Positions 20,773 through 60,241 of a stretch of 64,000 bases of DNA are shown piece after piece. The notes beneath the pieces are model-generated. The model was not told the DNA's origin and did not search any database. It was given only the letters and a program-made list of their open reading frames with translations. The position numbers and the translations under genes were made by a program. Source of the stretch: a virus; IMG/VR virus record IMGVR_UViG_3300045988_117149; one strand, given 5' to 3'. How positions within the stretch are numbered: position 1 is the first letter of the stretch; each line of letters opens with the position of its first letter.

Positions 20773-20819
20773 GGTTCAAAATTTTAGGAAGTTCGCGATT
20801 AATAACATACTATCTAATC

Positions 20820-20840
20820 GGTAATCGCTAAGCGATTACC
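20820..20840. repeat. 21-nt perfect palindrome GGTAATCGCT-A-AGCGATTACC
   Basis: Read directly. A third GCGATTA half-site lies at 20795..20801. Located between the MTase-like gene and the packaging operon. Confidence 0.8.
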
Positions 20841-20880
20841 TTTATCGAACGTAGTGAGATAATATCCCAATATACTACTA

Positions 20881-20990
20881 CTGATATAGATGATATGATA
20901 GCTATATATACGCAGATAAATATATAGATATATATACGTAGTATATTATATATCTATATATTTCAAGGCAGTGTTTGGACTTATATAGAA
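20881..20990. repeat. TA-dinucleotide-rich low-complexity block with TATATATACG direct repeat
   Basis: TATATATACG occurs at 20903..20912 and 20929..20938, within runs of TATA/GATA. Confidence 0.7.
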
Positions 20991-21012
20991 TACTTTCTAT
21001 ATAAAGCTAAAA

Positions 21013-27343: not shown

Positions 27344-27811
27344 ATGAATATGAGAAGTACAGATTACATAAGTAAGGGAACTGCAGTAGCAAGGCTATAT
27401 AAGGCAAGGGAATACCTATTAATGGATAAAGATTGTAGGAAGGGCTTATGCTTTTACCTAAGGTCAGTAGATATCCTGGATTACCTCGAAGAGATTGGGA
27501 TATGGAATTTAGATACCTTCAGTATAGAAGTTCTATGGGCCTATGAGGATTTTATAAATAGAAGTTGTATAGTGGCTATGGGAAATGTGAAAGTAGTGGA
27601 GAGAAAGTTGAATACCATGTATAGTTGGAAGGATAGCTTTGATGCTAGGAGTTCATCCAAAGAGATATGGGGAATAGCAAGGGATTCTATCCCTGAGATT
27701 TCTCAAAAGAATTTCTATTGGTGGGACCCAAATGATAGAGAGGTAAGGGTGAAGGCAATCGATTTATTAATTAATAAGGTAATGAAGTATGGTGAAGGAA
27801 AAGAAGATTAG
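27344..27811 (+). CDS. hypothetical W/Y-rich protein 1 of plus-strand cassette (155 aa)
   Basis: ORF-track ORF with a C-poor coding strand. Shares GLC..L and [FY]YW[WF].P....[VY]....[IL][DE][LI]L motifs with the next gene. Confidence 0.55.
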   Translation: MNMRSTDYISKGTAVARLYKAREYLLMDKDCRKGLCFYLRSVDILDYLEEIGIWNLDTFSIEVLWAYEDFINRSCIVAMGNVKVVERKLNTMYSWKDSFDARSSSKEIWGIARDSIPEISQKNFYWWDPNDREVRVKAIDLLINKVMKYGEGKED

Positions 27812-28154
27812 GAAAGTGTTCGAAGAAATATACCAAGAGCAGTTAGCTAAACATAGGAGAGGAGGAACAATACAGAATCTTTGTAGGGTAATTAAAACCC
27901 ATTGTGTTTTGAATGGGTATTCAACTTTATGGATAGAGATTCAGCAATGGTTTAAACCTGAAAGATATGGTTTAACGGAGTTATATTATACGATAGATGT
28001 TAATACCCCTACCCCGATTGAGATGATTCCTTATGAGGATAGAGATAGGTATTATTGGTTTCCTGTACATCAGGTATATAATTTGAAGAGATTGGAGATT
28101 CTTGAAATGGAGATAGATAATCAATTAAAGGAGGAAGGTTATGGTGAAGGTTGA
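27789..28154 (+). CDS. hypothetical W/Y-rich protein 2, paralog of protein 1 (121 aa)
   Basis: 23-nt overlap with the upstream gene. QNLCRVIK...RYYWFPVHQVYNLKRLEILE parallels KGLCFYLR...NFYWWDPNDREVRVKAIDLL. Confidence 0.55.
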   Translation: MVKEKKIRKVFEEIYQEQLAKHRRGGTIQNLCRVIKTHCVLNGYSTLWIEIQQWFKPERYGLTELYYTIDVNTPTPIEMIPYEDRDRYYWFPVHQVYNLKRLEILEMEIDNQLKEEGYGEG

Positions 28155-28404
28155 GACTTTGAAGGAAGATGGGTTTGTTAGAATCCTAAGATGTAGGGAA
28201 GGTAATAGGATTTGGTATCAGATGTGGCTTACCGATTTGGAGAAGGGTTGCATTGATAGATATTTCCTTGATATGGAAGTTAAGGCTTGGTGGTTGATTA
28301 ATCTTCAGAGATGGTATGTTTTCTTTTATGAGAAGAATGGTAGGAGAGTTAGGGGAGTATTGGGGAAAGATAGGACTAAGGATTTACTTAGGAGTATTTT
28401 GTAG
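28141..28404 (+). CDS. hypothetical W-rich protein 3 (87 aa)
   Basis: 14-nt overlap with the upstream gene. Last gene before the bidirectional terminator. Confidence 0.5.
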   Translation: MVKVETLKEDGFVRILRCREGNRIWYQMWLTDLEKGCIDRYFLDMEVKAWWLINLQRWYVFFYEKNGRRVRGVLGKDRTKDLLRSIL

Positions 28405-28560
28405 GTATAGGCCCGGGATGGTTAATCTGTTCTGGGCTTCTTTGTGTGAGCATGTGTGGTGTGTGGATGTGGGGTACCCCTTAATACGAGGTGTCAAAAT
28501 CATGGCCTACTAAAACGAGCGTACGGTTACGTTAAATTTAACATTTAAAAATAAAAAGTA

Positions 28561-28907: not shown

Positions 28908-28935
28908 GATAGGGAGTAAAATTTTACTCCCTATC
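28908..28935. repeat. 28-nt perfect palindrome GATAGGGAGTAAAA/TTTTACTCCCTATC
   Basis: Read directly, between the two low-GC genes. T-run (TGATTTTTGTTTT) only on the plus-strand side. Confidence 0.8.
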
Positions 28936-28946
28936 TGATTTTTGTT

Positions 28947-29357
28947 TTACTTCATTGATTTTTTCACGATTTCGAGACCTTTTATTAATATCGCTTTCTT
29001 TTCTTCTTTTGTATTCTCACTTGCAATTGAATTAAATGAAAAATCATTTAATGTATAGACTTGTTTATAAAAGTCTATAAAGCCCTCAATTAGTTTTTTA
29101 TCTGCATTGTTTGCAATCGTTGAAAGAAAATTGAAAGTTACGTTTCTGAACTTTTTACGTAACGATTTGATTTGCTTTTCGTTTGCACCCTCAAAAAGTT
29201 CTTTTTTGTAAATTTCTGTTTTTGTCCCTAAAGAAGTTTTGAAAAGACCAGCATTTTTTTCTTTAACGCTTTTCAATACGTCTAAAGCAATTAAACTATT
29301 TGCTTTTGCGTTTGCACTTGCTTTTTCTACATTTACATTATTAATTTGCTTTTTCAT
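28947..29357 (-). CDS. hypothetical lysine-rich helical protein in low-GC insert (136 aa)
   Basis: ORF-track ORF downstream of two tandem promoter copies. Confidence 0.55.
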   Translation of the reverse strand: MKKQINNVNVEKASANAKANSLIALDVLKSVKEKNAGLFKTSLGTKTEIYKKELFEGANEKQIKSLRKKFRNVTFNFLSTIANNADKKLIEGFIDFYKQVYTLNDFSFNSIASENTKEEKKAILIKGLEIVKKSMK

Positions 29358-29469
29358 AATAAAATGCTTGAAAGTTTTATTATTAATTATTTTTATTACC
29401 TTTTCAAATAGACCCTCAAGACTTTTTAAACTATTCTAATAAGGTAGTATTTATTTCATTTCTGTATTG

Positions 29470-29477
29470 CAAATATA
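29470..29477 (-). promoter_or_regulatory. -7 box TATATTTG with -33 TTTG (minus strand), copy 1
   Basis: Minus strand reads TTTGTAGATTAAAAAATAGTTCTTATATTTGCAAT, i.e. TTTG-N19-TAnnTTTG. Confidence 0.65.
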
Positions 29478-29575
29478 AGAACTATTTTTTAATCTACAAA
29501 ATTTTTAGAGAATTATTTTCTTAAAAAGTTTTAATTAAAAATTTATTCAAATATCTTTTTGTTTTTCTCACATTG

Positions 29576-29583
29576 CAAAGATA
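29576..29583 (-). promoter_or_regulatory. -7 box TATCTTTG with -33 TTTG (minus strand), copy 2
   Basis: A ~55-nt segment about 75 percent identical to copy 1, 107 nt upstream (ATTGCAAAGATACGGACTTTATTTTAATCTACAAAC). Confidence 0.55.
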
Positions 29584-29846
29584 CGGACTTTATTTTAATC
29601 TACAAACATTTTCAAGAAAATTTTTTGAGAAAATGAATATTTTTATTTTCAAAATTATTTTCGTGAAAAATTCATAAAATAGAAAATATTGTGCACCCTA
29701 AAAGGACTTAATATTTGCACTTAATTTTGGAGGTTCACAAGGGAAATCTTCACACGCCTTGTAGTGGGCATATATGATATGTATATAGGTAATCCTATAT
29801 AGCTTATGCCTGTCCTCTTGAGAGTGTATTATATACCTGTATATTG

Positions 29847-30039
29847 AAGGCCATTAATGGACTAAGGTGATAAAGAATTAAGGCCAATTAGCTATATCCA
29901 TATTATTGCCATCTATAAACCTATTAGGTCCTAATTCAATAAGGCCATATAGGGACTATGGTAAGCCTATAGAGATTAGGATAGCCTATAAGGGCTTACT
30001 AAGTTAGCGTAAGTAAAAACCCAGTACTTAGGTAAGCCT
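29847..30039. repeat. cluster of short repeated words (AAGGCCA x3, GGTAAGCCT x2, CCATTAATGG)
   Basis: AAGGCCA at 29847, 29880 and 29941. GGTAAGCCT at 29960 and 30031. Palindrome CCATTAATGG at 29851..29860. Confidence 0.75.
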
Positions 30040-30054
30040 GGGTCAAAGTTAGGA

Positions 30055-30441
30055 TTAGAGAGTATAGGGATGGGTAACGATATATGTATTATTGATATAG
30101 GTTACTGTAGGGGCAAGAGGTGAAGCCTCATAATCGAGAGGGAATGCTTTGTGTAATTCGTAGGAGCAAAGCTGTTCTTGTCTAGTATTCAGTTCGTTAT
30201 CTGAATAGAATATTAGTGTATGTAAGCCATCGCCTTCTTCTTCGTTCTCTGTTGAGGTAATTGAGATTAGGTGAAAGCCTTGTTTGAGAAATTCTGAGTC
30301 TTTGTCAAGAGAACCGAGATAGCAATTGAGGTATTCGGTATAGCCCTGTACTGAAGGATTAGAAGCATTAGAGATTACTAAGGCATTATTAGTAAGTTCT
30401 GATTCAGTGTTGAGAACGAGGTACTTAATATTATTTTTCAT
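30055..30441 (-). CDS. hypothetical acidic protein (128 aa) embedded between repeat arrays
   Basis: ORF-track ORF with its own -7 box at 30484. Confidence 0.5.
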   Translation of the reverse strand: MKNNIKYLVLNTESELTNNALVISNASNPSVQGYTEYLNCYLGSLDKDSEFLKQGFHLISITSTENEEEGDGLHTLIFYSDNELNTRQEQLCSYELHKAFPLDYEASPLAPTVTYINNTYIVTHPYTL

Positions 30442-30483
30442 AATGTTTAAAAATTAAATTGTTAGTATTTCTTTTTCTTTCTA

Positions 30484-30491
30484 CAAAGATA
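30484..30491 (-). promoter_or_regulatory. -7 box TATCTTTG (minus strand)
   Basis: About 45 nt upstream of ATG 30441. Confidence 0.5.
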
Positions 30492-30563
30492 CAAATAATA
30501 AATAATATATGCAATATGCCCCATTTGCCTTCGTAGGTTATTGATGGCCTTATAAATCCCCTG

Positions 30564-31116
30564 GGCCATTAATGGAGATTGCCTTAATCCTAATTTGCCC
30601 AGTACCTACTAATATATAATACTATATAAACTAACCTGAGGCAAAAGGCAATCAAGGCAATCGAAATCACCAAATTGTCCTAGAGTTCTGCAAATAATGC
30701 TAATATAAATACTAAGCCAATTACTTACATAGTTACTAGGAATATTGCCTAAATATTACCTATAAAAGCCCTAATTCCTATTTACCATTTAGCCTTAAAA
30801 CCCTAATCCTATTTGCCTAATCACAAATCCTAACTCCAATACTTATTATATAATACCTAATATAATAACTTGGTGAAGGCAATCAAGGTAAATTGTGATG
30901 GCCATTAATCGACGATGTACTAAAGCTATACTACCCACATACATAGAAGCTACATAACATACCTGTATTATATAATCCCCTACCTTCGAATTACCTTGAA
31001 TGCAATCTATAATATAATACATATAAAGGGTACTCAAGGCAATCGGATTTAGACGGATTTAGAGGCCATTAATGGTCGGATTTTGTGTACCTTTTAGGCC
31101 TTTTTGTGATTGCCTT
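30564..31116. repeat. iteron/palindrome array: AAGGCAATC x5 direct + x2 inverted, GGCCATTAATGG x3, CGGATTT x3
   Basis: AAGGCAATC at 30645, 30654 (tandem), 30876 and 31036. Degenerate AAGGTAA at 30885. Inverted GATTGCCTT at 30577 and 31108. GGCCATTAATGG at 30564 and 31064, GGCCATTAATCG at 30900. CGGATTT at 31044, 31054 and 31077. Confidence 0.85.
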
Positions 31117-31527
31117 TAAAGTGTGTAGTAGAGCTATATGGTATAGTGGCTATATAGTGAGTTGAGTGGCTTTGTATAGTAGTAGGTAGGTACCTAGATC
31201 TCATTCTCAATTTTTCCCACCCCCGGCGAGGTACCCCAAGGGAAGGAAGGTAAGTATGTATTATGATTAGTATATGTTATATTGATGGTATATAGGATAG
31301 GTGTATTAGTTATATGTGTACCTTAGTTAGCGCTATTAAGATTTTGATTATTTGTTTTGTTTGGTGGGTAGTATGTGGATGGGTAGTATTATAGGATTAC
31401 CTTGAATAGGTATTCGATTAGGATATTGTATAGTAATAGGTATATTAGGTACTTGGTTATTATGTAGGCTTTGGGATATTTTATTTGGTTTTCTTTGTGT
31501 TGGGAGTAGGTCTTCTCTACGTCTAGG

Positions 31528-31560
31528 ATCCTTAGTAGGAAGTAGAGCCCTACTAAGGAT
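31528..31560. terminator. 12-bp perfect hairpin at the end of the early gene array
   Basis: ATCCTTAGTAGG (31528..31539) / CCTACTAAGGAT (31549..31560) with a 9-nt loop, 26 nt after the stop of 31586..31846. No clear U-tract. Confidence 0.45.
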
Positions 31561-31585
31561 TTGGATAATATGTATAGGATTTGTA

Positions 31586-31846
31586 TCATAATTCTGGTAT
31601 TCCTTGTTTCTGTATTACGGTTCCTCCTCGATTAAAGGATATCTCTTGGCATTCTAAGTGTATTGTCTCGAAGTATTCCTGGATGCCCTGAAGACTGAAG
31701 AAGGTTAATTTCTCGTTACCGTATATGTTATTTACCTGGTCTATGATTTCTTGTTTGGCTTTGGTAGGGTCCTCATTGAGGGAATGTATTATATCCTGTA
31801 CTTCGTTATCTTCGATAATTACTAAGGTAGTGATTGTTATTTTCAT
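31586..31846 (-). CDS. hypothetical protein (86 aa)
   Basis: ORF-track ORF. Last gene of the minus-strand early array. Confidence 0.5.
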   Translation of the reverse strand: MKITITTLVIIEDNEVQDIIHSLNEDPTKAKQEIIDQVNNIYGNEKLTFFSLQGIQEYFETIHLECQEISFNRGGTVIQKQGIPEL

Positions 31847-31849
31847 GTT

Positions 31850-32128
31850 CTAGTCGATATATAGGTTATACTTAATGTTTTCTAGTGTGAAGGATATGAA
31901 GGGTTTTTCCTCTGTTTCTTCCTTGGGATAGGCATTGAGGATTAGGTCATCCGTATTTAGGATTAGGTTTACTTCCTGTCCTCCATTAGTTGTGATGATG
32001 GTGATATCTTCCTCAAGGTCTCTGTCTTTCTCATCGCCCAGTGAATTAAGGAGGATAGCCGACCATGGATAATCTTGGACCTGTGATATAAGGATGATAA
32101 GCAGTTGGTTAAAAGCTCTTGTTGTCAT
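31850..32128 (-). CDS. hypothetical acidic protein (92 aa)
   Basis: ORF-track ORF downstream of the promoter at 32191. Confidence 0.5.
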   Translation of the reverse strand: MTTRAFNQLLIILISQVQDYPWSAILLNSLGDEKDRDLEEDITIITTNGGQEVNLILNTDDLILNAYPKEETEEKPFISFTLENIKYNLYID

Positions 32129-32190
32129 AATGTTAATGTGTTAGTGACCCGTTCGAGGTCGGTTAATATTATATTTTTATTTCTCTATTG

Positions 32191-32198
32191 CAAATATA
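32191..32198 (-). promoter_or_regulatory. -7 box TATATTTG (minus strand)
   Basis: Minus strand reads TTCGTATATTTGCAATAGAG. Confidence 0.6.
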
Positions 32199-32243
32199 CG
32201 AAATAAATATAATACGTGCAAATTAATATAATAATATATGGGG

Positions 32244-32477
32244 TTAACTGGGTACCCTAATGAAGTCCAGTATTTCGATATCATAATAGGGCATTCCCAT
32301 TAGTTCTCGGATTACCTGTTTGGTAAAATATACATGTAGGTGATTAGGATTTAATGTTTGCCTTGGATATCTGAGATATGGGTTTAATTCTTCAGTACGA
32401 TATGTAACAAGGAAAGGCTCGCAAAAGCCTTCTCCTTGAATATTAAATGATACCAGGAATGTGTCTTTAGTTATCAT
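32244..32477 (-). CDS. hypothetical protein (77 aa)
   Basis: ORF-track ORF. Confidence 0.5.
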   Translation of the reverse strand: MITKDTFLVSFNIQGEGFCEPFLVTYRTEELNPYLRYPRQTLNPNHLHVYFTKQVIRELMGMPYYDIEILDFIRVPS

Positions 32478-32617
32478 ATCAGTATGGGTATTAGTTGTGT
32501 ATTTTCGATTGTTAAAACCGTATCTTTTGTTAAAGGTCGGGAACCGATACCGAATATAGTGATAGCGGTTCCCTGAGGTAGTCTAATCATTAATAGGAAG
32601 ATGATGTAGTCTTTCAT
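32474..32617 (-). CDS. possible small ORF (47 aa), below the track cutoff
   Basis: Own translation: MKDYIIFLLMIRLPQGTAITIFGIGSRPLTKDTVLTIENTQLIPILI. ATGA overlap with the 32477 start fills an otherwise empty 140-nt gap. Confidence 0.3.
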   Translation of the reverse strand: MKDYIIFLLMIRLPQGTAITIFGIGSRPLTKDTVLTIENTQLIPILI

Positions 32618-32620
32618 TTG

Positions 32621-32911
32621 TTACCCGAAATAGAATTTGCATAAGTCTTCTATGAAAGTCTCTTCTTCGTCCATGATTGTATCGGATTGTATGTATTCAA
32701 ATTTGAATTGAGAATAGAATGGTCCGAATATCAGTATCATTATGTTATCTTGCAGGTCGCATAATGATTGTTCCTCCTCTTCAGAGAGAGTAGATTGGTC
32801 CTTGTTAATGATATCAGAATAATTCTTAAGCAGAGCCTTGAGATTCTGAATACCTTCTGGGTTATTGGTTTCTATATCCAGCAATGTGGATTTCATTTCT
32901 TCTGTAATCAT
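32621..32911 (-). CDS. hypothetical very acidic protein (96 aa)
   Basis: ORF-track ORF with EEEEQS and DEEETFIED runs. Confidence 0.5.
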   Translation of the reverse strand: MITEEMKSTLLDIETNNPEGIQNLKALLKNYSDIINKDQSTLSEEEEQSLCDLQDNIMILIFGPFYSQFKFEYIQSDTIMDEEETFIEDLCKFYFG

Positions 32912-33297
32912 GATTGTATAGTTTTATAGGGTTTAGCAATTACTGATATGAACCCTTGTGGATATTGGGTATATAACAGTTGGAATGATACACCTTCTAC
33001 GTTTGGTAAAAATACCCGTATGATATTTGCGAGCAATGGGTAGATTTTCCATTGGTTCTCGTCCAGGAATTGTTGCCATTCAGCATGTTCATCCTCGTCA
33101 TAGTTACCTGTTAGTTGGATATGGTATCCCTCTGGTGGAGGTGTAGGAAGAAATAAGTTGGTTACAACTTCGATTTCGTTGGTTTCCTTTTTGTATTGAG
33201 AGATAGGATACCAGATACCTTCGGTTTTCCATTTGTCTAATTGGAACAGGGTCATTCCCTGTTCCAGTGCGTTAAGCAGTTTGTATAAGTTTACCAT
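32908..33297 (-). CDS. hypothetical protein (129 aa)
   Basis: ORF-track ORF with a 4-nt overlap downstream. Confidence 0.5.
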   Translation of the reverse strand: MVNLYKLLNALEQGMTLFQLDKWKTEGIWYPISQYKKETNEIEVVTNLFLPTPPPEGYHIQLTGNYDEDEHAEWQQFLDENQWKIYPLLANIIRVFLPNVEGVSFQLLYTQYPQGFISVIAKPYKTIQS

Positions 33298-33303
33298 AGT
33301 TGA

Positions 33304-33810
33304 TTAGAGTTTATTGATTGTTTCTGAAATGTAAAGCCCAGAGAATAATTCCGTTTCTCTGTGATCTGATTCGTATTTTTCGAGTGATTCAAGAGTATCG
33401 GAATATTGAGATATCATGTCTTCGTCATTTTCCTCGTTAGCAATGAAGTTTCTTAAATGGGTTTTGAGACCTTCGATTGTATAATCTTGGTGTTCAAGAG
33501 TTAATTGAGGAATAGCATAAATGATAGCCTCTACCTGTGAAGGAGAATAATCGTAGTATTGGTCATCGGCACCCTCTTCTAAGTCCATTGATTTGATATT
33601 TGATTTGATATCATTGAAGAGAATATCTTCGTTGGGATAGATGCAAAGAGTAGCAGATGCACCTTGGTAATCGTCGGTTTCCTCGATGTCAATTTCAAAG
33701 ATTTCGATACCGTCTGAAACTGAAAGACCTTCTGTGTAATCGAAAGTATGAAACTTGTTAGCATCGATTATCGATTTGAGTTCGGGGAGGGTTTTAATAA
33801 TTTTTTCCAT
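33304..33810 (-). CDS. hypothetical acidic protein (168 aa)
   Basis: The track start 33849 is a GTG abutting the -7 box. The ATG at 33810 (MEKIIKTL) is 42 nt from the box and is preferred. Confidence 0.5.
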   Translation of the reverse strand: MEKIIKTLPELKSIIDANKFHTFDYTEGLSVSDGIEIFEIDIEETDDYQGASATLCIYPNEDILFNDIKSNIKSMDLEEGADDQYYDYSPSQVEAIIYAIPQLTLEHQDYTIEGLKTHLRNFIANEENDEDMISQYSDTLESLEKYESDHRETELFSGLYISETINKL

Positions 33811-33851
33811 TTTGTCTATATTAAAAATTGTTTGAGAAATATTTCTCACTG

Positions 33852-33859
33852 CAAATATA
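33852..33859 (-). promoter_or_regulatory. -7 box TATATTTG (minus strand)
   Basis: Minus strand reads TTGTATATTTGCAGTGAG. Confidence 0.6.
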
Positions 33860-33910
33860 CAAAATTATTTTATAACTTGTATCACTATATAATATTATTT
33901 TTAAAAATAG

Positions 33911-33947
33911 AGAGGTACTCAGTTTTGGTTATGTACTGAGCACCTCT
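33911..33947 (-). terminator. intrinsic terminator after 33966..34532
   Basis: AGAGGTACTCAG / CTGAGCACCTCT (11 of 12 pairs) with a 13-nt loop. On the minus strand it is followed by CTATTTTTAAAAA. Confidence 0.65.
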
Positions 33948-33965
33948 GAGGATATATAGAACTGG

Positions 33966-34532
33966 TTAGGGAATTATTGGTAGGCCATTATCTTCATTGA
34001 AATATCTTAATTTCCTTCGAGTTATTCGGCCTTCCTTTTCCTTTAATCCGTCTACCCACTTGGGATAGGATTTTATGGTAGTTTCGGTTTTATTACCATG
34101 ATTATCTTTAATGATTACAAAAGAATCTTCTATGGTGATCTTATAAGTACTTCGATAGGTAGTAATGGTTTCTGGTATGCAGATGATTCCCTCTGATTTA
34201 CGCATGCCTGCGTTTGTAGCCTTAGGATAATCTGTATATTTAATAATACCGTTCTCAGTAGTAGCATAATGTAACCTTCTTCGGGTTATTCTTTTACCGT
34301 ATGAAAGTTTCAGCTTGCTATACCAGGTTTGGTATTCCTCTAGAGAATTAAGCATAATAATTTGACTTGTTCCTTTAGCAGGAGTCTTAGATTTACTTAT
34401 GGCTTGCTGAATAAGGATTTTATCAGGTTGCATAGTTAGCGAATATACAACCCGTTTGTAATTAAAGCTGAATACTGAACCAGAGGAGCATTCTATTTCC
34501 TCTGGTACGATAATAGGTTTTTGTTCATTCAT
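33966..34532 (-). CDS. hypothetical protein with internal duplication (188 aa)
   Basis: YQTWYSKLKLSYGKRITRRRLHYATTENGII versus YPKWVDGLKEKEGRITRRKLRYFNEDNGLPI. Confidence 0.55.
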   Translation of the reverse strand: MNEQKPIIVPEEIECSSGSVFSFNYKRVVYSLTMQPDKILIQQAISKSKTPAKGTSQIIMLNSLEEYQTWYSKLKLSYGKRITRRRLHYATTENGIIKYTDYPKATNAGMRKSEGIICIPETITTYRSTYKITIEDSFVIIKDNHGNKTETTIKSYPKWVDGLKEKEGRITRRKLRYFNEDNGLPIIP

Positions 34533-34705
34533 AATGTATACTCCTTTCTGATATCATCAAATTGTAGTAATGTCTTAAGTATCTTAGTTTTAGACCAAGT
34601 AGGTTCAAAGCCTATGCAAGGTATATATTCGTTATGAGGTACGAATAAAGTCATCCGACCTTGTTTTTGTAGGTCGGATTTTAGTTTCTTGTAATTAGTA
34701 GCCAT
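34529..34705 (-). CDS. possible small ORF (58 aa), below the track cutoff
   Basis: Own translation: MATNYKKLKSDLQKQGRMTLFVPHNEYIPCIGFEPTWSKTKILKTLLQFDDIRKEYTL. The ATG is 2 nt after the upstream stop, with an ATGA overlap downstream. Confidence 0.4.
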   Translation of the reverse strand: MATNYKKLKSDLQKQGRMTLFVPHNEYIPCIGFEPTWSKTKILKTLLQFDDIRKEYTL

Positions 34706-34707
34706 AG

Positions 34708-35091
34708 TTATGATATTCTGAAGTTAAGTTGATAAATCCAATTATTGGAATCCATCTTAGTGAACGAGATGAATATACCATCGTTATCCGTGAACTTTTG
34801 CATGAATTTCAGAGCAGCATCAGCAGCTTGATTCTTTTTCTCGGTAGTATCAAGAGTTACCATACTCTCTAAGATGAAAGTGTAATAGGTAGTCTCATAT
34901 TGACTGAAACAATTGATGTCTATCACCTGGAGATTGTGTAGTTCTGATAACTGGTATAGTTCAGTCATTAATAGGTTGTAGAGATTCTTTTTCTCATCTC
35001 GATCTAAATCAAAGTCGGATTTGTTCTTTATGAACTTAGTTACTACTTGAGCAAGTTGTTCATCCTGATTGTAAGTTACTGGGCTTCTCAT
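34708..35091 (-). CDS. hypothetical protein (127 aa)
   Basis: The track N-terminus MHIKFKIDKN starts at a TTG inside the promoter box. The real ATG is 35091 (MRSPVTYNQ). Confidence 0.55.
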   Translation of the reverse strand: MRSPVTYNQDEQLAQVVTKFIKNKSDFDLDRDEKKNLYNLLMTELYQLSELHNLQVIDINCFSQYETTYYTFILESMVTLDTTEKKNQAADAALKFMQKFTDNDGIFISFTKMDSNNWIYQLNFRIS

Positions 35092-57714: not shown

Positions 57715-57936
57715 TTATGTAGACATAGTATCCTCTTTCCTCAAGTTGGTAGTTGTTTTTGCTGAATCTGAATGCTTTAAGCTAATTTTACAATTTGGGC
57801 AATGTACTACTCTAAAGATACTATTGTCAGCAACATTATATACTCGTTCTGTTTCACTAGTATCATATTCAAATTCGCAATCACAGCAAGGACATTTAGC
57901 TCGCCATACCGTGGGCCCGTTCAAAATCTTTTTCAT
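57715..57936 (-). CDS. zinc-ribbon protein (73 aa)
   Basis: CPCCDC...HCPNC. Confidence 0.5.
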   Translation of the reverse strand: MKKILNGPTVWRAKCPCCDCEFEYDTSETERVYNVADNSIFRVVHCPNCKISLKHSDSAKTTTNLRKEDTMST

Positions 57937-60187
57937 ACTTCTTTATTTGTTTGTTAAACCTTTCCTTGAATTGCTTGGTGTGAATATGCTTATACTTCTT
58001 ATGTTCTTCCATATATTCCTCAACTGAGAAATCTGGTTGAAGCATCTTGTTATAATCATACCCAGGAATAAAGGGTAATTCCTCTGCCATTGACCTACCA
58101 ATAGTAAAGTCCATATCCATATCTACATCATCTACTTGGAAACCAAAGTATTTCTTTGTACTTGGATTACGTAGAATATTCCAGATAGTATATACTGTCC
58201 AGGTGTTTATATCTTGTGGCTTAGAATACATATAAACCGCATCATGAACTGTACAAGCTTCTTTCATCATGGGCAATTTGCCTTGTCTCATTAACCAGTA
58301 TACAAGAATTGCTCCAAAGTTTGTCATATTTGCTGCAGCACCCTGACATGGGAAATTCAAACCTAATCGGATAGCATAAGCAACTTCTTGTTTATCGTTA
58401 GAATATATCTGAGGTAATCTTCTCTTAGTTCCGAATAATTGGGTGTAATAACCATTCTTACGTAAGAACTTCTCTTGCTTCTCTTTGAACTTAAGTATCT
58501 TTGGGTGTTTCTTAAAGAATTCATCCATTTCCTTACGAGCTTCTTCTTTCGAAACTATAATACCAGCTTTTGGGTCAGATAATTTAACTGCTAGAAGAGC
58601 ATCACCAATACCATAGATAAGTCCAAAAGCAATTTGTTTAGCTTGCTTTCTCCTTACCTTCCATAACTTATGGTCTGGGTGTGATTCATCCTCATATATT
58701 TTAGAAGCTTCCTCAATGGGTACTCCATACTTTGCTGCTGCTATACCAAGGTGAGGATCTACTCCCTTGGCAAATGCTTCAAGATAAGTTTCATCACCAG
58801 ATAAGTGAGCCATCATTCTTAACTCTGCTTGGGAGTAGTCGAATGCCATGTATAAATATCCGGGAGGAGCAACTAATTGTTTTTTGATATTGGGGTCTAC
58901 AGATGTCTTTGGTATCTGCTGCATGTTTGGGTCTGCAGAACTAAACCTATTAGAGTCAGTACCATGTATATTATATCTACCATGTAATCGAGAGTCATCT
59001 TGTACTTTCTCCCACCATCCATAAATATAAGTCTTATACATTTTCTCTAACCCTCTAAGTTCCAATAACTTGTCAAGGAATATTGCTTTTGGTGATTCTG
59101 GGTTTTCTACCTTAAGCCTTAGATTAGTTAAAGTTTCCTCATCTGTACTTGGTTTACCAGATTCATTATCCTTGATTACCTCAAAATTAAACCCATGCTT
59201 TGAATACATAAGTGCAGGCAAATCAACTGGACTACCAAGGTTAATTGGTCTTATCAAATCCTGTTCCTTTTTAGTTGTGAATATACCTGCCTTGATATTA
59301 GATATCTTCTGTTCCCTTGATGCAATCTTTCGTTTGTCTTTTGGGTCATTATAATCTAACTCTTCAAGTTCTGCTTGGATAGCTTCTATATATTTATCAA
59401 TCTTAGCCTGGTTAAATCTCTTTTCGAATTTCTTAACTCTTGGCAAGTCGTATATTGCTTGTCTAGCAGCATCAATCTTTGGCTTATATTCTTCCAGAAG
59501 CTTTTTATTGAACTCGGTATCTACATATAATCCCTCTTTCTCTACAGAAGTAAGTACTCGAGAATTACACATAAATAAATTACGAAATACTGAATACATT
59601 CCCAAGTCAATTAACTTCTTCTCAAAGAATAGCATTAATCTCAAAGTATAATCTGTATCTTGACACCCATAATGGCAAAGTGGGTCTAATTCTTTTTTAT
59701 CCCAGGGTATCTTATCAAAAGCATCCTGCTTTTCATAATTACCATATTCTGGCAAATACCTTCTTACCATTGATTTTAGGTCATGTGGTTTTTCTTCATT
59801 GAGTACGTATTTTGCAAGCATACCATCTAAGCAAGTACCCCTATAGAATATTTTATACTTCTGATTTATCTGGTCATCAAATTTCCAGTTCCAGGCAACC
59901 TTAACTACATCGTAATTTTCGATTACCTCTTCCCCAAATTTCCTTAGCATCTTTTTCCAATTCCATCCTGGAGCAGTATATTCTTTAGTCTGAAAATGGT
60001 CTAAAGGTATAGAAGCACCAAATCCTGGCATCCAAGATACTGATAAGATTGTTGGTTTAAAAGATTTGTTGTATATGGGTTCTGCATTGGTTTCATAGTC
60101 ACAACAAGCATAACCCGTTGCTATACAACAAGCAATAAGTCGTTTGAGTTCTTTCTTGTTTCTTATTATCTTATATCTTGTCTCCAT
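57896..60187 (-). CDS. polA: family A DNA polymerase with 3'-5' exonuclease domain
   Basis: Exo I CCDYETNA, motif A DYSQAELRMMAHLSGDE, motif B RRKQAKQIAFGLIYG, motif C TVHDAVYM. ATG 60187 (METRYKII) is preferred over the hydrophobic track extension to 60232. Confidence 0.9.
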   Translation of the reverse strand: METRYKIIRNKKELKRLIACCIATGYACCDYETNAEPIYNKSFKPTILSVSWMPGFGASIPLDHFQTKEYTAPGWNWKKMLRKFGEEVIENYDVVKVAWNWKFDDQINQKYKIFYRGTCLDGMLAKYVLNEEKPHDLKSMVRRYLPEYGNYEKQDAFDKIPWDKKELDPLCHYGCQDTDYTLRLMLFFEKKLIDLGMYSVFRNLFMCNSRVLTSVEKEGLYVDTEFNKKLLEEYKPKIDAARQAIYDLPRVKKFEKRFNQAKIDKYIEAIQAELEELDYNDPKDKRKIASREQKISNIKAGIFTTKKEQDLIRPINLGSPVDLPALMYSKHGFNFEVIKDNESGKPSTDEETLTNLRLKVENPESPKAIFLDKLLELRGLEKMYKTYIYGWWEKVQDDSRLHGRYNIHGTDSNRFSSADPNMQQIPKTSVDPNIKKQLVAPPGYLYMAFDYSQAELRMMAHLSGDETYLEAFAKGVDPHLGIAAAKYGVPIEEASKIYEDESHPDHKLWKVRRKQAKQIAFGLIYGIGDALLAVKLSDPKAGIIVSKEEARKEMDEFFKKHPKILKFKEKQEKFLRKNGYYTQLFGTKRRLPQIYSNDKQEVAYAIRLGLNFPCQGAAANMTNFGAILVYWLMRQGKLPMMKEACTVHDAVYMYSKPQDINTWTVYTIWNILRNPSTKKYFGFQVDDVDMDMDFTIGRSMAEELPFIPGYDYNKMLQPDFSVEEYMEEHKKYKHIHTKQFKERFNKQIKKYEKDFERAHGMAS

Positions 60188-60241
60188 AATTATAAATAGA
60201 AAGAGGGACATACCTACCAGTAGCAGATACATCCCTCTTAA

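What the first reader, a model, noticed from the sequence alone, without database searches (positions are those of the whole stretch)
30442..31130. About 0.7 kb of non-coding DNA packed with iterons and palindromes: candidate replication origin or protein-binding array
Seen in the sequence: there is no credible ORF here. The 9-mer AAGGCAATC occurs at 30645, 30654 (tandem), 30876 and 31036, and inverted (GATTGCCTT) at 30577 and 31108. The 12-mer palindrome GGCCATTAATGG occurs at 30564 and 31064, with a 1-mismatch copy at 30900 and another CCATTAATGG at 29851. CGGATTT occurs three times within 40 nt (31044, 31054, 31077). CCTAAT(C/T)CTA-TTTGCC-like words recur at about 30585-30820. Palindrome and 9-mer copies occur as paired modules. 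Chance recurrence of 9-12-mers at this density in under 1 kb is negligible. Inference: these are iterons for an initiator, partition or regulatory protein, flanked by AT-rich DNA, lying between the early and late halves of the genome. Alternatively, the complementary 9-mers could form long-range helices of a large non-coding RNA.
Basis: partly seen in the sequence, partly recalled or inferred. Interest (0 to 1): 0.65.

Follow-up and report, generated by a model that had tools for sequence, protein, structure and literature searches.

The report
Conserved iteron-rich non-coding region, gut phage
This 0.8 kb gene-free stretch of a common human-gut Bacteroides phage (Flandersviridae-like) is a conserved array of short protein-binding-type repeats around AT-rich boxes; it is most likely a replication origin or a similar protein-assembly site, but its function is unproven.

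Summary
AAGGCAATC occurs exactly 10 times in 64 kb (0.6 expected), six of them in 30577-31116. GGCCATTAATGG occurs only at 29849, 30564 and 31064 (0 expected). No ORF appears under any stop-codon recoding.

The window is a roughly 85 kb Flandersviridae-like phage with Bacteroidetes-type promoters. The finding is the upstream half (NCR-1, about 30442-31240) of a 2 kb non-coding island. That island flanks a swappable promoter-gene-terminator cassette (30055-30441) and precedes a highly conserved 136-aa gene.

NCR-1 contains three units. Each has inverted WAGGYAAWY words around a TATTATATAATA-type AT box, next to an ATT(A/C)ATGGCC dyad.

More than 100 related phage contigs keep this layout. NCR-1 diverges 2.4 times more slowly than neighbouring synonymous sites. 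Distant genera keep the architecture but use different repeat words.

There is no Rfam match and no covariation, the stems are not conserved, and no host-type promoter lies inside the region. An RNA reading is therefore unsupported.

GC skew does not inflect here, and no initiator or partition protein is recognisable.

Best reading: a cis-acting protein-binding array, most likely a replication origin (about 0.4). A transcriptional control region is the main rival. It would be an undescribed member of a known kind; interest is moderate.

The parts
31260..31500 (-). C/A-rich, almost G-free tract on the transcribed (-) strand at the end of the upstream early operon. It overlaps the doubtful 66-aa ORF at 31389-31589. 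It may be a Rho-utilisation-like termination zone.
   Evidence: The + strand GC skew in 60-nt windows is +0.5 to +1.0. The sequence is shown.
31322..31330 (-). Conserved word CTAACTAAG, within the invariant stretch GCGCTAACTAAGGTACA. Its only other copy, CTAACTTAG, is at 29999-30007 in NCR-2.
   Evidence: (two copies in the window, both in the island).
31219..31232 (-). Small conserved hairpin, ACCTC-GCC-GGGGT. In most relatives a run of TTTT follows it, suggesting a terminator of the upstream operon. The T run is lost in this window.
   Evidence: Alignments. Variants keep the pairing (U:G to C:G in L001; the other change is in the loop).
30989..31116 (.). Module A. Components: (-) AAGGTAATT 30989-30997; AT box 31008-31021; (+) AAGGCAATC 31036-31044; CGGATTT x3 (31044, 31054, 31077); dyad GGCCATTAATGG 31064-31075; (-) AAGGCAATC 31108-31116. 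This is the best-conserved module of the family.
   Evidence: column entropy 0.17-0.29 for 31054-31116.
30811..30976 (.). Module B. Components: (-) TAGGCAAAT 30811-30819; AT box 30844-30860; (+) AAGGCAATC 30876-30884 and AAGGTAAAT 30885-30893; dyad-like GGCCATTAATCG 30900-30911; AT box 30964-30976. It is a diverged copy of modules A and C, and it is present in some relatives and absent in others.
   Evidence: families D1, D5, D15, spacing 164; 72% over 75 nt to module C; indel in L001 and L005-L009.
30769..30817 (-). Two of the three copies of GGYAAATWGGAWTTARGG (30801-30817 and 30769-30786). The tract is G-rich on the - strand. The third copy is at 30582-30599.
   Evidence: three copies, all in this region; GC skew -0.8.
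30674..30776 (-). Conserved core, ATTCCTAGTAACTATGTAAGTAATTGGCTTAGTATTTATATTAGCATTA...CTCTAGGACAAT. This is the only block of NCR-1 still alignable to a phage whose 136-aa protein homologue is only 56% identical.
   Evidence: 76% over 105 nt to L212; the 19-mer is found in more than 115 IMG/VR stretches; entropy 0.21.
30523..30662 (.). Module C. Components: (-) AAGGCAAAT 30523-30531; dyad GGCCATTAATGG 30564-30575; (-) AAGGCAATC 30577-30585; AT box 30610-30630; (+) AAGGCAATC x2 at 30645-30662.
   Evidence: (I5). The left-hand words vary among relatives (GATTGCC, GATTACC or AATTACC).
30484..30491 (-). Bacteroidetes-type -7 promoter box TATCTTTG of the cassette gene.
   Evidence: The equivalent box in L156 is TATATTTG.
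30055..30441 (-). 128-aa cassette (moron-like) gene with no known family. Other family members carry unrelated genes in the same slot.
   Evidence: (found in only 12 of 76 loci).
30015..30042 (-). Intrinsic terminator of the cassette, CCCAGG-N12-CTGGG followed by T5. It is conserved across the family.
29358..30014 (.). NCR-2, the second conserved non-coding block. It carries the fourth dyad, GGCCATTAATGG, at 29849-29860. At its downstream end lies an AT-rich stretch (12-25% GC) with two tandem promoters.
   Evidence: (the layout is kept in L208, where p136 is 69% identical).
29470..29606 (-). Two duplicated canonical Bacteroidetes promoters of the form TTTG-N19-TAnnTTTG (29576-29606 and 29470-29500) that drive the 136-aa gene.
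   Evidence: (D2).
28947..29357 (-). 136-aa helical, lysine-rich protein (p136), the best-conserved gene of the neighbourhood. It is a candidate partner of the array, but nothing demonstrates this.
   Evidence: median 91% aa identity; AF2 mean pLDDT 82.5; no Pfam, PDB sequence or PDB fold match.

Best explanation
NCR-1 (about 30442-31240) is a cis-acting DNA element rather than a gene. It consists of three similar units. In each unit, short WAGGYAAWY words in opposite orientation flank a near-palindromic AT-rich box of the TATTATATAATA type, and an ATT(A/C)ATGGCC dyad lies beside them. The most likely function is a replication origin. In that model a phage early protein binds the inverted iterons, a dimeric factor binds the dyads, and the AT boxes between them are opened so that the phage helicase, primase and PolA can be loaded.

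Shown: the repeats, their arrangement, their conservation and the purifying selection on them. Also shown are the change of repeat word with retained architecture in distant relatives, the absence of coding capacity and the absence of RNA-structure signal. Inferred: that proteins bind here, and that the outcome is initiation of replication rather than another DNA transaction.
For: The repeats are far above chance and exclusive to this region.

The same layout recurs in about 60 and then 135 related IMG/VR loci. In 28 of 38 complete intervals there are four ATT[AC]ATGGCC sites at fixed spacing, and all 38 intervals hold 9-14 iterons.

Mean pairwise divergence of NCR-1 is 0.118, against 0.286 at four-fold degenerate sites of the adjacent p136 gene. 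NCR-1 is the slower of the two in 93% of 1653 pairs. Neighbouring early proteins are only 33-50% identical.

Distant genera (p136 40-56% identical) keep a 1-1.6 kb non-coding block of the same design but use other words. L212 has AATCACA, four direct copies spaced 21, 11 and 11 bp plus three inverted copies, around the homologous AT box. L285 has four modules of inverted GGATT/AATCACA words around (TA)n centres. This pattern is what one expects if binding sites co-evolve with a binding protein.

Inverted words are kept where stem potential is lost, which favours recognition of double-stranded DNA.

No canonical host promoter lies inside NCR-1, although five clear ones lie elsewhere on the - strand, and a termination zone precedes the region. 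The DNA is therefore probably little transcribed.

The phage encodes its own PolA, SSB, UvsX-like recombinase and SbcCD. According to the family description it also has DnaB and DnaG (PMC8008677). No origin has been assigned for this family.

From my own knowledge, iterons plus an AT-rich stretch plus a dyad in conserved non-coding DNA at the edge of the early region is the classical signature of phage origins (lambda ori; lactococcal c2 and sk1; the S. thermophilus Sfi21-type ori).
Against: GC and AT skew show no inflection at the region. In a genome with nearly all genes on one strand this test is weak.

No DnaA boxes are present. No recognisable initiator, helicase loader or other DNA-binding protein lies next to the region. 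The replication genes are more than 18 kb away.

As a class, the iterons are not better conserved than the spacers between them. The near-uniform conservation over 750 bp exceeds what a simple origin would need.

The tandem 9-mers of module C and the perfect proximal palindrome are minority variants within the family.

There is no direct evidence of binding or initiation.
Confidence: 0.4

Rival explanations
1. NCR-1 is a transcriptional control region. In this model it is an operator or insulator array bound by a phage regulator, possibly the conserved 136-aa protein. The array would end early transcription and control the cassette gene, p136 and perhaps the switch to lysis and structural genes.
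For: The region sits between a termination zone (31219-31500) and the cassette promoter (30484-31491 region; -7 box at 30484-30491). The proximal dyad and iteron lie 70-100 bp upstream of that promoter. A fourth dyad lies upstream of the duplicated p136 promoters. p136 and the non-coding blocks are conserved together while the surrounding genes diverge. The dyad ATT(A/C)ATGGCC survives in L212, where the iterons differ, as expected for a site read by a conserved factor. Sigma-70-like TTGCCT-17-TATTAT matches occur in modules A and C.
Against: Three or four modules spread over 700 bp are many more sites than one or two promoters need. p136 shows no DNA-binding fold or family. The sigma-70-like matches are no more frequent than in shuffles (18 against 16.0 +/- 3.5), and Bacteroidetes RNA polymerase uses the TTTG/TAnnTTTG promoter type. 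The motifs are absent upstream of the late genes.
Confidence: 0.25
2. The region encodes one or more non-coding RNAs. Examples would be an antisense or decoy RNA whose complementary 9-mers pair in cis or in trans, or a protein-sponge RNA carrying repeated AGG-rich motifs.
For: Primary-sequence conservation is long and nearly uniform. Complementary 9-mers can form a 23-bp imperfect stem in module C (I5, z = -2.9). The - strand block 30655-30835 folds with z = -2.4. L285 modules fold strongly (z = -4.8).
Against: No Rfam family matches at the gathering threshold or at E-values up to 5. Sliding-window z-scores mostly lie between -2 and +1. RNAalifold on 85-102 distinct sequences gives only singleton double changes, 4-7% non-canonical cells, and similar results on both strands. 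The module C stem is absent in the typical relative L156 (z = +0.7). An apparent compensatory pair, CTTG..CAAG versus CTAG..CTAG, dissolved when counted. No TAnnTTTG promoter is found on either strand inside NCR-1.
Confidence: 0.1
3. The conserved non-coding blocks serve mainly as homology arms. Recombination between co-infecting relatives would swap the promoter-gene-terminator cassette that lies between them, as proposed for the PeSL mobile regulatory cassettes of T4-type phages. On this reading the repeats are by-products.
For: Different genes occupy the slot between NCR-1 and NCR-2 (p128 here, an unrelated roughly 89-aa gene in L156, one to three genes in L284, L285 and L289, none in L212). 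Conservation stops exactly at the cassette borders. Many public contigs end inside this island, as expected at a polymorphic junction.
Against: Homology arms do not require internal inverted iterons, dyads at fixed spacing, or purifying selection 2.4 times stronger than at synonymous sites. L212 keeps the full 1.56 kb block with no cassette at all. This role is compatible with the other explanations and does not exclude them.
Confidence: 0.1
4. The array is a centromere-like or maintenance site that allows the phage genome to persist as an extrachromosomal circle in a carrier state.
For: Repeated words in both orientations in several modules resemble plasmid and phage centromeres. The family description speculates about P1-like episomal persistence (PMC8008677). 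No copy is integrated in 185,579 species genomes; the only family hit is one misbinned 3.6 kb fragment.
Against: No ParA, ParB or ParM-like gene was detected near the region, and the published family annotation reports none. There is no similarity to any PLSDB plasmid.
Confidence: 0.07

Closest known systems
Iteron-type phage origins: lambda ori, and the non-coding ori of lactococcal c2/sk1 and Streptococcus thermophilus Sfi21-type phages (recalled from my own knowledge, not tested here)
   Same: A cluster of short repeated words, AT-rich DNA and a dyad lies in non-coding DNA at the edge of the early/replication region. The sequence is strongly conserved among related phages. Distant relatives show different repeat words on a conserved layout.
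   Different: Here there are three (two to four in relatives) separate modules spread over 700 bp. The iterons are inverted around each AT box rather than forming one tandem direct array. No cognate initiator gene is recognisable, and the replication genes are more than 18 kb away. Origin activity is untested.
Origins with an AT-rich centre flanked by inverted initiator sites (HSV-1 oriS with its UL9 boxes; the SV40 core origin with its GAGGC pentamers) (own knowledge)
   Same: The unit geometry matches: inverted binding words on both sides of a short, near-palindromic AT-rich centre.
   Different: Those origins belong to eukaryotic viruses with unrelated initiators. Their arms are 10-20 bp apart, whereas here the words are 40-60 bp apart. 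This is an analogy of design only.
Satellite phage P4 ori plus crr (own knowledge)
   Same: Two separated non-coding blocks share the same short words in direct and inverted orientation. Here NCR-1 and NCR-2 share the GGCCATTAATGG dyad and the CTAACTWAG word.
   Different: In P4 the alpha primase-helicase that binds the sites is encoded between them. Here an unrelated, swappable small gene lies between the blocks.
PeSL mobile regulatory cassettes and morons of T4-type and lambdoid phages (own knowledge)
   Same: A promoter-gene-terminator unit is flanked by conserved non-coding sequence, and different genes occupy the same slot in relatives.
   Different: PeSLs are short promoter and stem-loop elements. 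Here the flanks are 0.7-0.8 kb blocks with their own internal repeat architecture.
Plasmid and phage centromeres (P1 parS, F sopC, the dispersed N15 sites) (own knowledge)
   Same: Arrays of short words in both orientations lie in non-coding DNA.
   Different: No partner ParA/ParB genes are found, and the units carry AT-rich centres that centromeres do not need.

Membership tests
Iteron-type replication origin | Cluster of repeated short words (iterons) in non-coding DNA, far above chance | tested here: met
   Six of the 10 exact AAGGCAATC copies lie within 540 bp (0.6 expected in the whole window). The word WAGGYAAWY has 10 copies in 799 bp, 19 times the background density.
Iteron-type replication origin | AT-rich, easily melted DNA next to or between the iterons | tested here: met
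   TATTATATWWT boxes lie at 30610-30630, 30844-30860, 30964-30976 and 31008-31021. Apart from one copy at 32167, they occur only in this region. Local GC is 23-28%. Whether they actually melt is untested.
Iteron-type replication origin | Helical phasing of the iterons (about 11 or 22 bp) | tested here: inconclusive
   The tandem pairs in the window are 9 bp apart. In the relative L212 the spacing is 21, 11, 11 bp for the direct copies and 12, 9 bp for the inverted copies.
Iteron-type replication origin | A cognate initiator or origin-binding protein encoded by the element | tested here: not met
   None of the flanking proteins scanned between 23 and 47 kb gave a DNA-binding, Rep, DnaA-like or helicase-loader hit in Pfam or PHROGs. 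p136 has no known fold. An unrecognisable initiator cannot be excluded.
Iteron-type replication origin | Strand-composition inflection at the site | tested here: not met
   The cumulative GC skew has its minimum at about 22-23 kb and its maximum at about 35 kb, and is flat over 29-31 kb. At fine scale the sign alternates. The test is weak for a genome transcribed almost entirely from one strand.
Iteron-type replication origin | Initiation of DNA synthesis at the site (coverage peak, 2D gels, autonomous or phage-dependent plasmid replication) | not testable with these tools
   No read data or experiments were available.
Structured non-coding RNA (Rfam families, large ornate phage RNAs) | Match to a curated covariance model | tested here: not met
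   No match at the gathering threshold in 64 kb. The only match at E up to 5 in 29200-31700 was one chance hit outside the region.
Structured non-coding RNA (Rfam families, large ornate phage RNAs) | Base pairs supported by compensatory changes | tested here: not met
   RNAalifold on 85-102 distinct sequences, four blocks plus the whole region, both strands. Double changes are singletons, 4-7% of cells are non-canonical, and the strands do not differ. A candidate pair was rejected. Power is limited by the low divergence.
Structured non-coding RNA (Rfam families, large ornate phage RNAs) | A promoter and a terminator that delimit a transcript | tested here: not met
   No TAnnTTTG box lies inside NCR-1 on either strand. 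The only one, at 30484-30491, belongs to the cassette gene.
Partition (centromere) site | Adjacent ParA/ParB or ParM/ParR genes | tested here: not met
   No such Pfam or PHROG hit near the region. None is reported for the family (PMC8008677).
Moron / mobile regulatory cassette slot | An autonomous promoter-gene-terminator unit, with different genes at the same position in relatives, flanked by conserved sequence | tested here: met
   p128 has a -7 box at 30484-30491 and a terminator at 30015-30042. The gene is present in 12 of 76 loci, other genes occupy the slot in L156, L284, L285 and L289, and L212 has none. This describes the gene between the two non-coding blocks, not NCR-1 itself.
'Flandersviridae' (proposed gut phage family) | Genome of about 85 kb, PolA-based replication module, BACON-domain structural protein, roughly 20 kb block of unknown ORFs, Bacteroides/Parabacteroides host | tested here: met
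   Related contigs are 84-88 kb. PolA, SSB, UvsX-like recombinase and SbcCD are present. A BACON domain is found. ORFs without hits span 31-49 kb. Promoters are of the Bacteroidetes type. This matches the description in PMC8008677. TerL/PolA phylogeny, the formal criterion, was not run.

The most novel reading that the evidence does not exclude
NCR-1, NCR-2 and the co-conserved, strongly promoted 136-aa protein of unknown fold together form a previously unknown replication-control or episome-maintenance module. Such a module would let these very prevalent gut phages persist as extrachromosomal circles without recognisable partition or lysogeny genes. The swappable cassette between the two blocks would then be a payload slot.
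Probability: 0.08. Interest if true: 0.8.

Novelty: new member of a known kind. Interest (0 to 1): 0.45.

Why it matters
Flandersviridae-like phages are among the most prevalent human-gut phages (PMC8008677; PMC13370021). Their replication start, lifestyle and regulation are unknown, and I found no paper that mentions this region. The work here defines a 2 kb non-coding island that is under purifying selection and has a clear modular anatomy. That gives a concrete target for marker-frequency analysis of existing metagenomes and for binding assays with early proteins. It could also inform the design of shuttle or reporter constructs for Bacteroides phages. In addition, it marks a natural, promoter- and terminator-equipped cassette slot where accessory genes are exchanged. 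If the region is simply the origin, that is useful annotation but not a surprise.

Tried and rejected
1. Hidden coding capacity. No ORF longer than 63 aa exists under the standard code, and none above about 145 aa when any single stop codon is read through. The longest of those lie over the known p128 gene or in AT-rich frames.

2. Known RNA families. None matched. No tRNA or tmRNA was found.

3. RNA or DNA structure. Sliding z-scores, block-wise RNAalifold on both strands and single-module folds in three genomes gave no conserved structure.

4. An apparent compensatory change, CTTG..CAAG versus CTAG..CTAG, beside the left iteron of module C. Counting 105 sequences showed 34 mixed, non-complementary states, so I rejected it.

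5. p136 as an identifiable DNA-binding protein. It has no Pfam, PHROG, PDB-sequence or PDB-fold match, even though the model is confident. This led nowhere.

6. The four extra exact AAGGCAATC copies inside genes (11383, 21190, 27752, 57501; 0.6 expected for the whole window). I tested whether they are dispersed sites. The two checked, 21190 and 27752, vary among relatives at the 9-mer positions themselves, so I treat them as coding coincidence.

7. DnaA boxes are under-represented and are not clustered here.

8. Similarity to plasmids, GenBank phages or bacterial genomes. None was found apart from one misbinned fragment.

9. Genome termini or a packaging site. The ends of public contigs fall at different positions within the island. 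Chunked storage makes locus ends unreliable, and terS/terL are 10 kb away. This reading is neither supported nor strictly excluded.

10. The 18-mer AAGGCAATCAAGGCAATC as a search key returned mostly unrelated coding repeats.
Full report
OBSERVATION. AAGGCAATC is exact at 30645, 30654, 30876 and 31036 on the + strand and at 30577 and 31108 on the - strand. The window holds 10 exact copies against 0.60 +/- 0.82 in dinucleotide shuffles. GGCCATTAATGG is exact only at 29849, 30564 and 31064, with a 1-mismatch copy at 30900; shuffles give none. CGGATTT occurs three times within 40 nt. The longest ORF in 30442-31388 is a 63-aa TTG ORF, and reading through TAG, TGA or TAA creates no credible gene. 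The window contains no tRNA, tmRNA or Rfam family.

CONTEXT. Nearly all genes lie on the - strand. The order along that strand is as follows:
- nucleotide metabolism and replication genes: thymidylate synthase, PolA at 57896-60232, SSB, UvsX-like recombinase and SbcCD;
- about 18 kb of small ORFs with no family;
- the non-coding island;
- a few small genes, a BACON-domain protein, an endolysin and a methyltransferase;
- the terminase, portal, protease, major head protein and tail genes.

Canonical Bacteroidetes promoters of the form TTTG-N17-23-TAnnTTTG lie on the - strand at 29500, 29606, 32222, 35149 and 40581, all in intergenic DNA. GenBank phages contain no close relative. Contig sizes of 84-88 kb and the gene content match the published description of the proposed family 'Flandersviridae', which infects Bacteroides and Parabacteroides. 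That paper reports no recognisable partition or lysogeny genes (PMC8008677).

ANATOMY. The finding is the upstream half (NCR-1, about 30442-31240) of a 2 kb non-coding island spanning 29358-31388. Read in the direction of transcription, the island has these parts:
- The upstream operon ends in a C/A-rich, nearly G-free tract at 31260-31500. A small conserved hairpin follows at 31219-31232. In most relatives, though not in this window, a T run comes after it.
- Three related units follow. Each has a WAGGYAAWY word on one strand, a near-palindromic AT box of the TATTATATAATA type, and one or two WAGGYAAWY words on the other strand. An ATT(A/C)ATGGCC dyad lies beside each unit.
- Between units B and C lie a G-rich tract with copies of GGYAAATWGGAWTTARGG and a roughly 100-nt core at 30674-30776.
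- The degenerate iteron has 10 copies in 799 bp, five per strand, which is 19 times the density in the rest of the window.
- The AT box, the 18-mer and the word CTAACTWAG are confined to the island, apart from one AT-box match at 32167.
- Downstream come a host-type -7 box at 30484-30491, the 128-aa gene and a conserved intrinsic terminator at 30015-30042.
- NCR-2 follows, carrying a fourth dyad at 29849 and two duplicated strong promoters. It ends at a 136-aa gene, p136.

RELATIVES. The 128-aa protein retrieved nine IMG/VR loci. A motif-pair pattern retrieved about 60 contigs. A 19-mer from the core retrieved enough further loci to give 135 in all.

The 128-aa gene is present in only 12 of 76 loci. 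Other genes occupy its slot, each with its own TAnnTTTG promoter and the same terminator. It is therefore a swappable, moron-like cassette.

In 38 complete intervals between the flanking genes, NCR-1 and NCR-2 are nearly invariant, and conservation stops at the cassette borders. The same holds for 104 distinct NCR-1 sequences.

Four ATT[AC]ATGGCC sites at fixed spacing occur in 28 of 38 intervals, and every interval has 9-14 iterons. The A-to-B spacing is 154 bp in relatives and 164 bp here, because this window carries a private 10-bp tandem duplication that created one of the three CGGATTT copies.

Neighbouring early proteins are 33-50% identical to those of the window, whereas p136 is 91% and the adjacent 98-aa protein 95% identical. 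Using the four-fold degenerate sites of p136 as a neutral yardstick, mean pairwise divergence is 0.286 at those sites, 0.118 in NCR-1 and 0.051 at codon positions 1 and 2. NCR-1 is the slower of the two in 93% of 1653 pairs. This shows purifying selection on the non-coding DNA. Two caveats apply: gapped columns are ignored, and recombination may homogenise the block.

DISTANT GENERA. p136 belongs to a wider family of 130 clusters at 50% identity. Contigs encoding homologues 40-56% identical to p136 keep the same order: a non-coding block of about 1-1.6 kb, then none to three or four small genes, then a block of about 0.8 kb, then the p136 homologue, followed by the endolysin, methylase and terminase.

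The repeat words differ in these genomes:
- L212 has four direct AATCACA copies spaced 21, 11 and 11 bp, plus three inverted copies. They surround an AT box homologous to box C of the window. L212 also keeps the core (76% over 105 nt) and a CCATTCATGGCC dyad.
- L285 has four modules of inverted GGATT/AATCACA words around (TA)n centres.
- L284 keeps AGGCAATC.

A conserved architecture with changing words is what binding sites that co-evolve with a binding protein would produce.

RNA READING. Rfam gives nothing. Sliding-window folding gives z-scores mostly between -2 and +1; the best values are -2.9 and -3.1. RNAalifold on 85-102 distinct sequences, in four blocks and over the whole region, gives similar results on both strands. 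Double changes are singletons and 4-7% of cells are non-canonical.

The 9-mer arms of module C can form a stem in this window (z = -2.9). The typical relative L156 keeps inverted words in an order that cannot pair (z = +0.7), while L285 folds well. An apparent compensatory pair disappeared on counting. No host-type promoter lies inside NCR-1.

The evidence therefore favours recognition of double-stranded DNA. An RNA is not excluded, because low divergence limits the power of the covariation tests.

ORIGIN READING. The design is iterons in opposite orientation around AT-rich boxes, with dyads beside them, in conserved non-coding DNA at the border of the early region, in a phage that brings its own replisome. 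From my own knowledge, that is the classical signature of phage origins.

Several points weigh against it. The GC skew has no inflection here; the extremes are at about 22-23 kb and about 35 kb. DnaA boxes are not enriched. No initiator is recognisable nearby. p136 gave a confident model (mean pLDDT 82.5) with no PDB fold or family match. As a class, the iterons are not better conserved than the spacers. The best-conserved islands are the distal composite at 31054-31116, the proximal composite at 30564-30585 and the core.

I therefore put a cis-acting protein-binding array at about 0.7, and a replication origin specifically at about 0.4. The alternatives are a transcriptional control array (0.25), non-coding RNA (0.1), recombination arms for cassette exchange as the main role (0.1; compatible with the others) and a maintenance or centromere-like site (0.07).

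NOVELTY. I found no paper that mentions this region. It has no similarity to plasmids, GenBank phages or bacterial genomes, apart from one misbinned fragment. It is best filed as an undescribed member of a known kind, namely iteron-rich cis-acting non-coding regions of phages. It is notable for its conservation in a very prevalent gut phage family and for its link to a cassette slot.

VERDICT. Interest is moderate (0.45).

Noticed in passing
window 20773-21012: A second repeat-rich non-coding region lies directly upstream of the 203-aa gene that precedes the large terminase. It has a near-perfect 21-bp palindrome, GGTAATCGCTAAGCGATTACC (20820-20840), a perfect 17-bp inverted repeat (20918-20934 and 20947-20963) and ATAGNTATATAT repeats every 26 bp. 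It may be a pac site or a late promoter. It shares the GGTAATC word and a GTATATTATATAT box with the finding.
   Followed up: partly
window 28947-29357 (-): This 136-aa lysine-rich helical protein is driven by two duplicated canonical promoters and is the best-conserved gene of the neighbourhood. The homologue search returned 2255 proteins, and the representative search returned 130 clusters at 50% identity. The AF2 model is confident, but there is no Pfam, PHROG or PDB match, so it may have a new fold or function.
   Followed up: partly
window 30055-30441 and the homologous slot in L156:7658-7926, L284, L285, L289: A hypervariable cassette slot holds unrelated small genes in different relatives. 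Each has its own TAnnTTTG promoter and shares a common terminator. Many public contigs break within or beside this island.
   Followed up: partly
window 31000-35000: The - strand genes here have a positive + strand GC skew (+0.07 to +0.31), opposite to all other - strand coding regions of the window. This is unexplained; these small early genes may have a different origin or expression class.
   Followed up: no
window 31044-31063: A private 10-bp tandem duplication, (CGGATTTAGA)x2, is absent from about 60 relatives. It lengthens the spacing between the first two dyads from 154 to 164 bp, close to one helical turn.
   Followed up: yes
window 28908-28935: A perfect 12-bp-stem hairpin, GATAGGGAGTAA-AATT-TTACTCCCTATC, lies between p136 and the 98-aa membrane protein gene. 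It may be a bidirectional terminator facing the converging + strand genes at 27344-28513.
   Followed up: no
window 11383, 21190, 27752, 57501: Four further exact AAGGCAATC copies lie inside genes (0.6 expected for the whole window). Some extend to 12-15 nt of identity with copies in the non-coding island. The two examined, 21190 and 27752, are not strictly conserved in relatives.
   Followed up: partly
L207 (DBEZMF010000040.1, a 'Collinsella sp.' MAG): This 3.6 kb contig, binned into a Collinsella genome, is 89% identical to the phage non-coding region over 534 nt. It is almost certainly a misbinned fragment of a Bacteroidales phage.
   Followed up: yes
L212:1304-1560: A distant relative shows a textbook origin-like unit. 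Four direct AATCACA words spaced 21, 11 and 11 bp and three inverted copies flank a 170-bp AT-rich centre. That centre contains a long inverted repeat (ACGAGATACGTAAAG and CTTACGTATCTCAT).
   Followed up: partly
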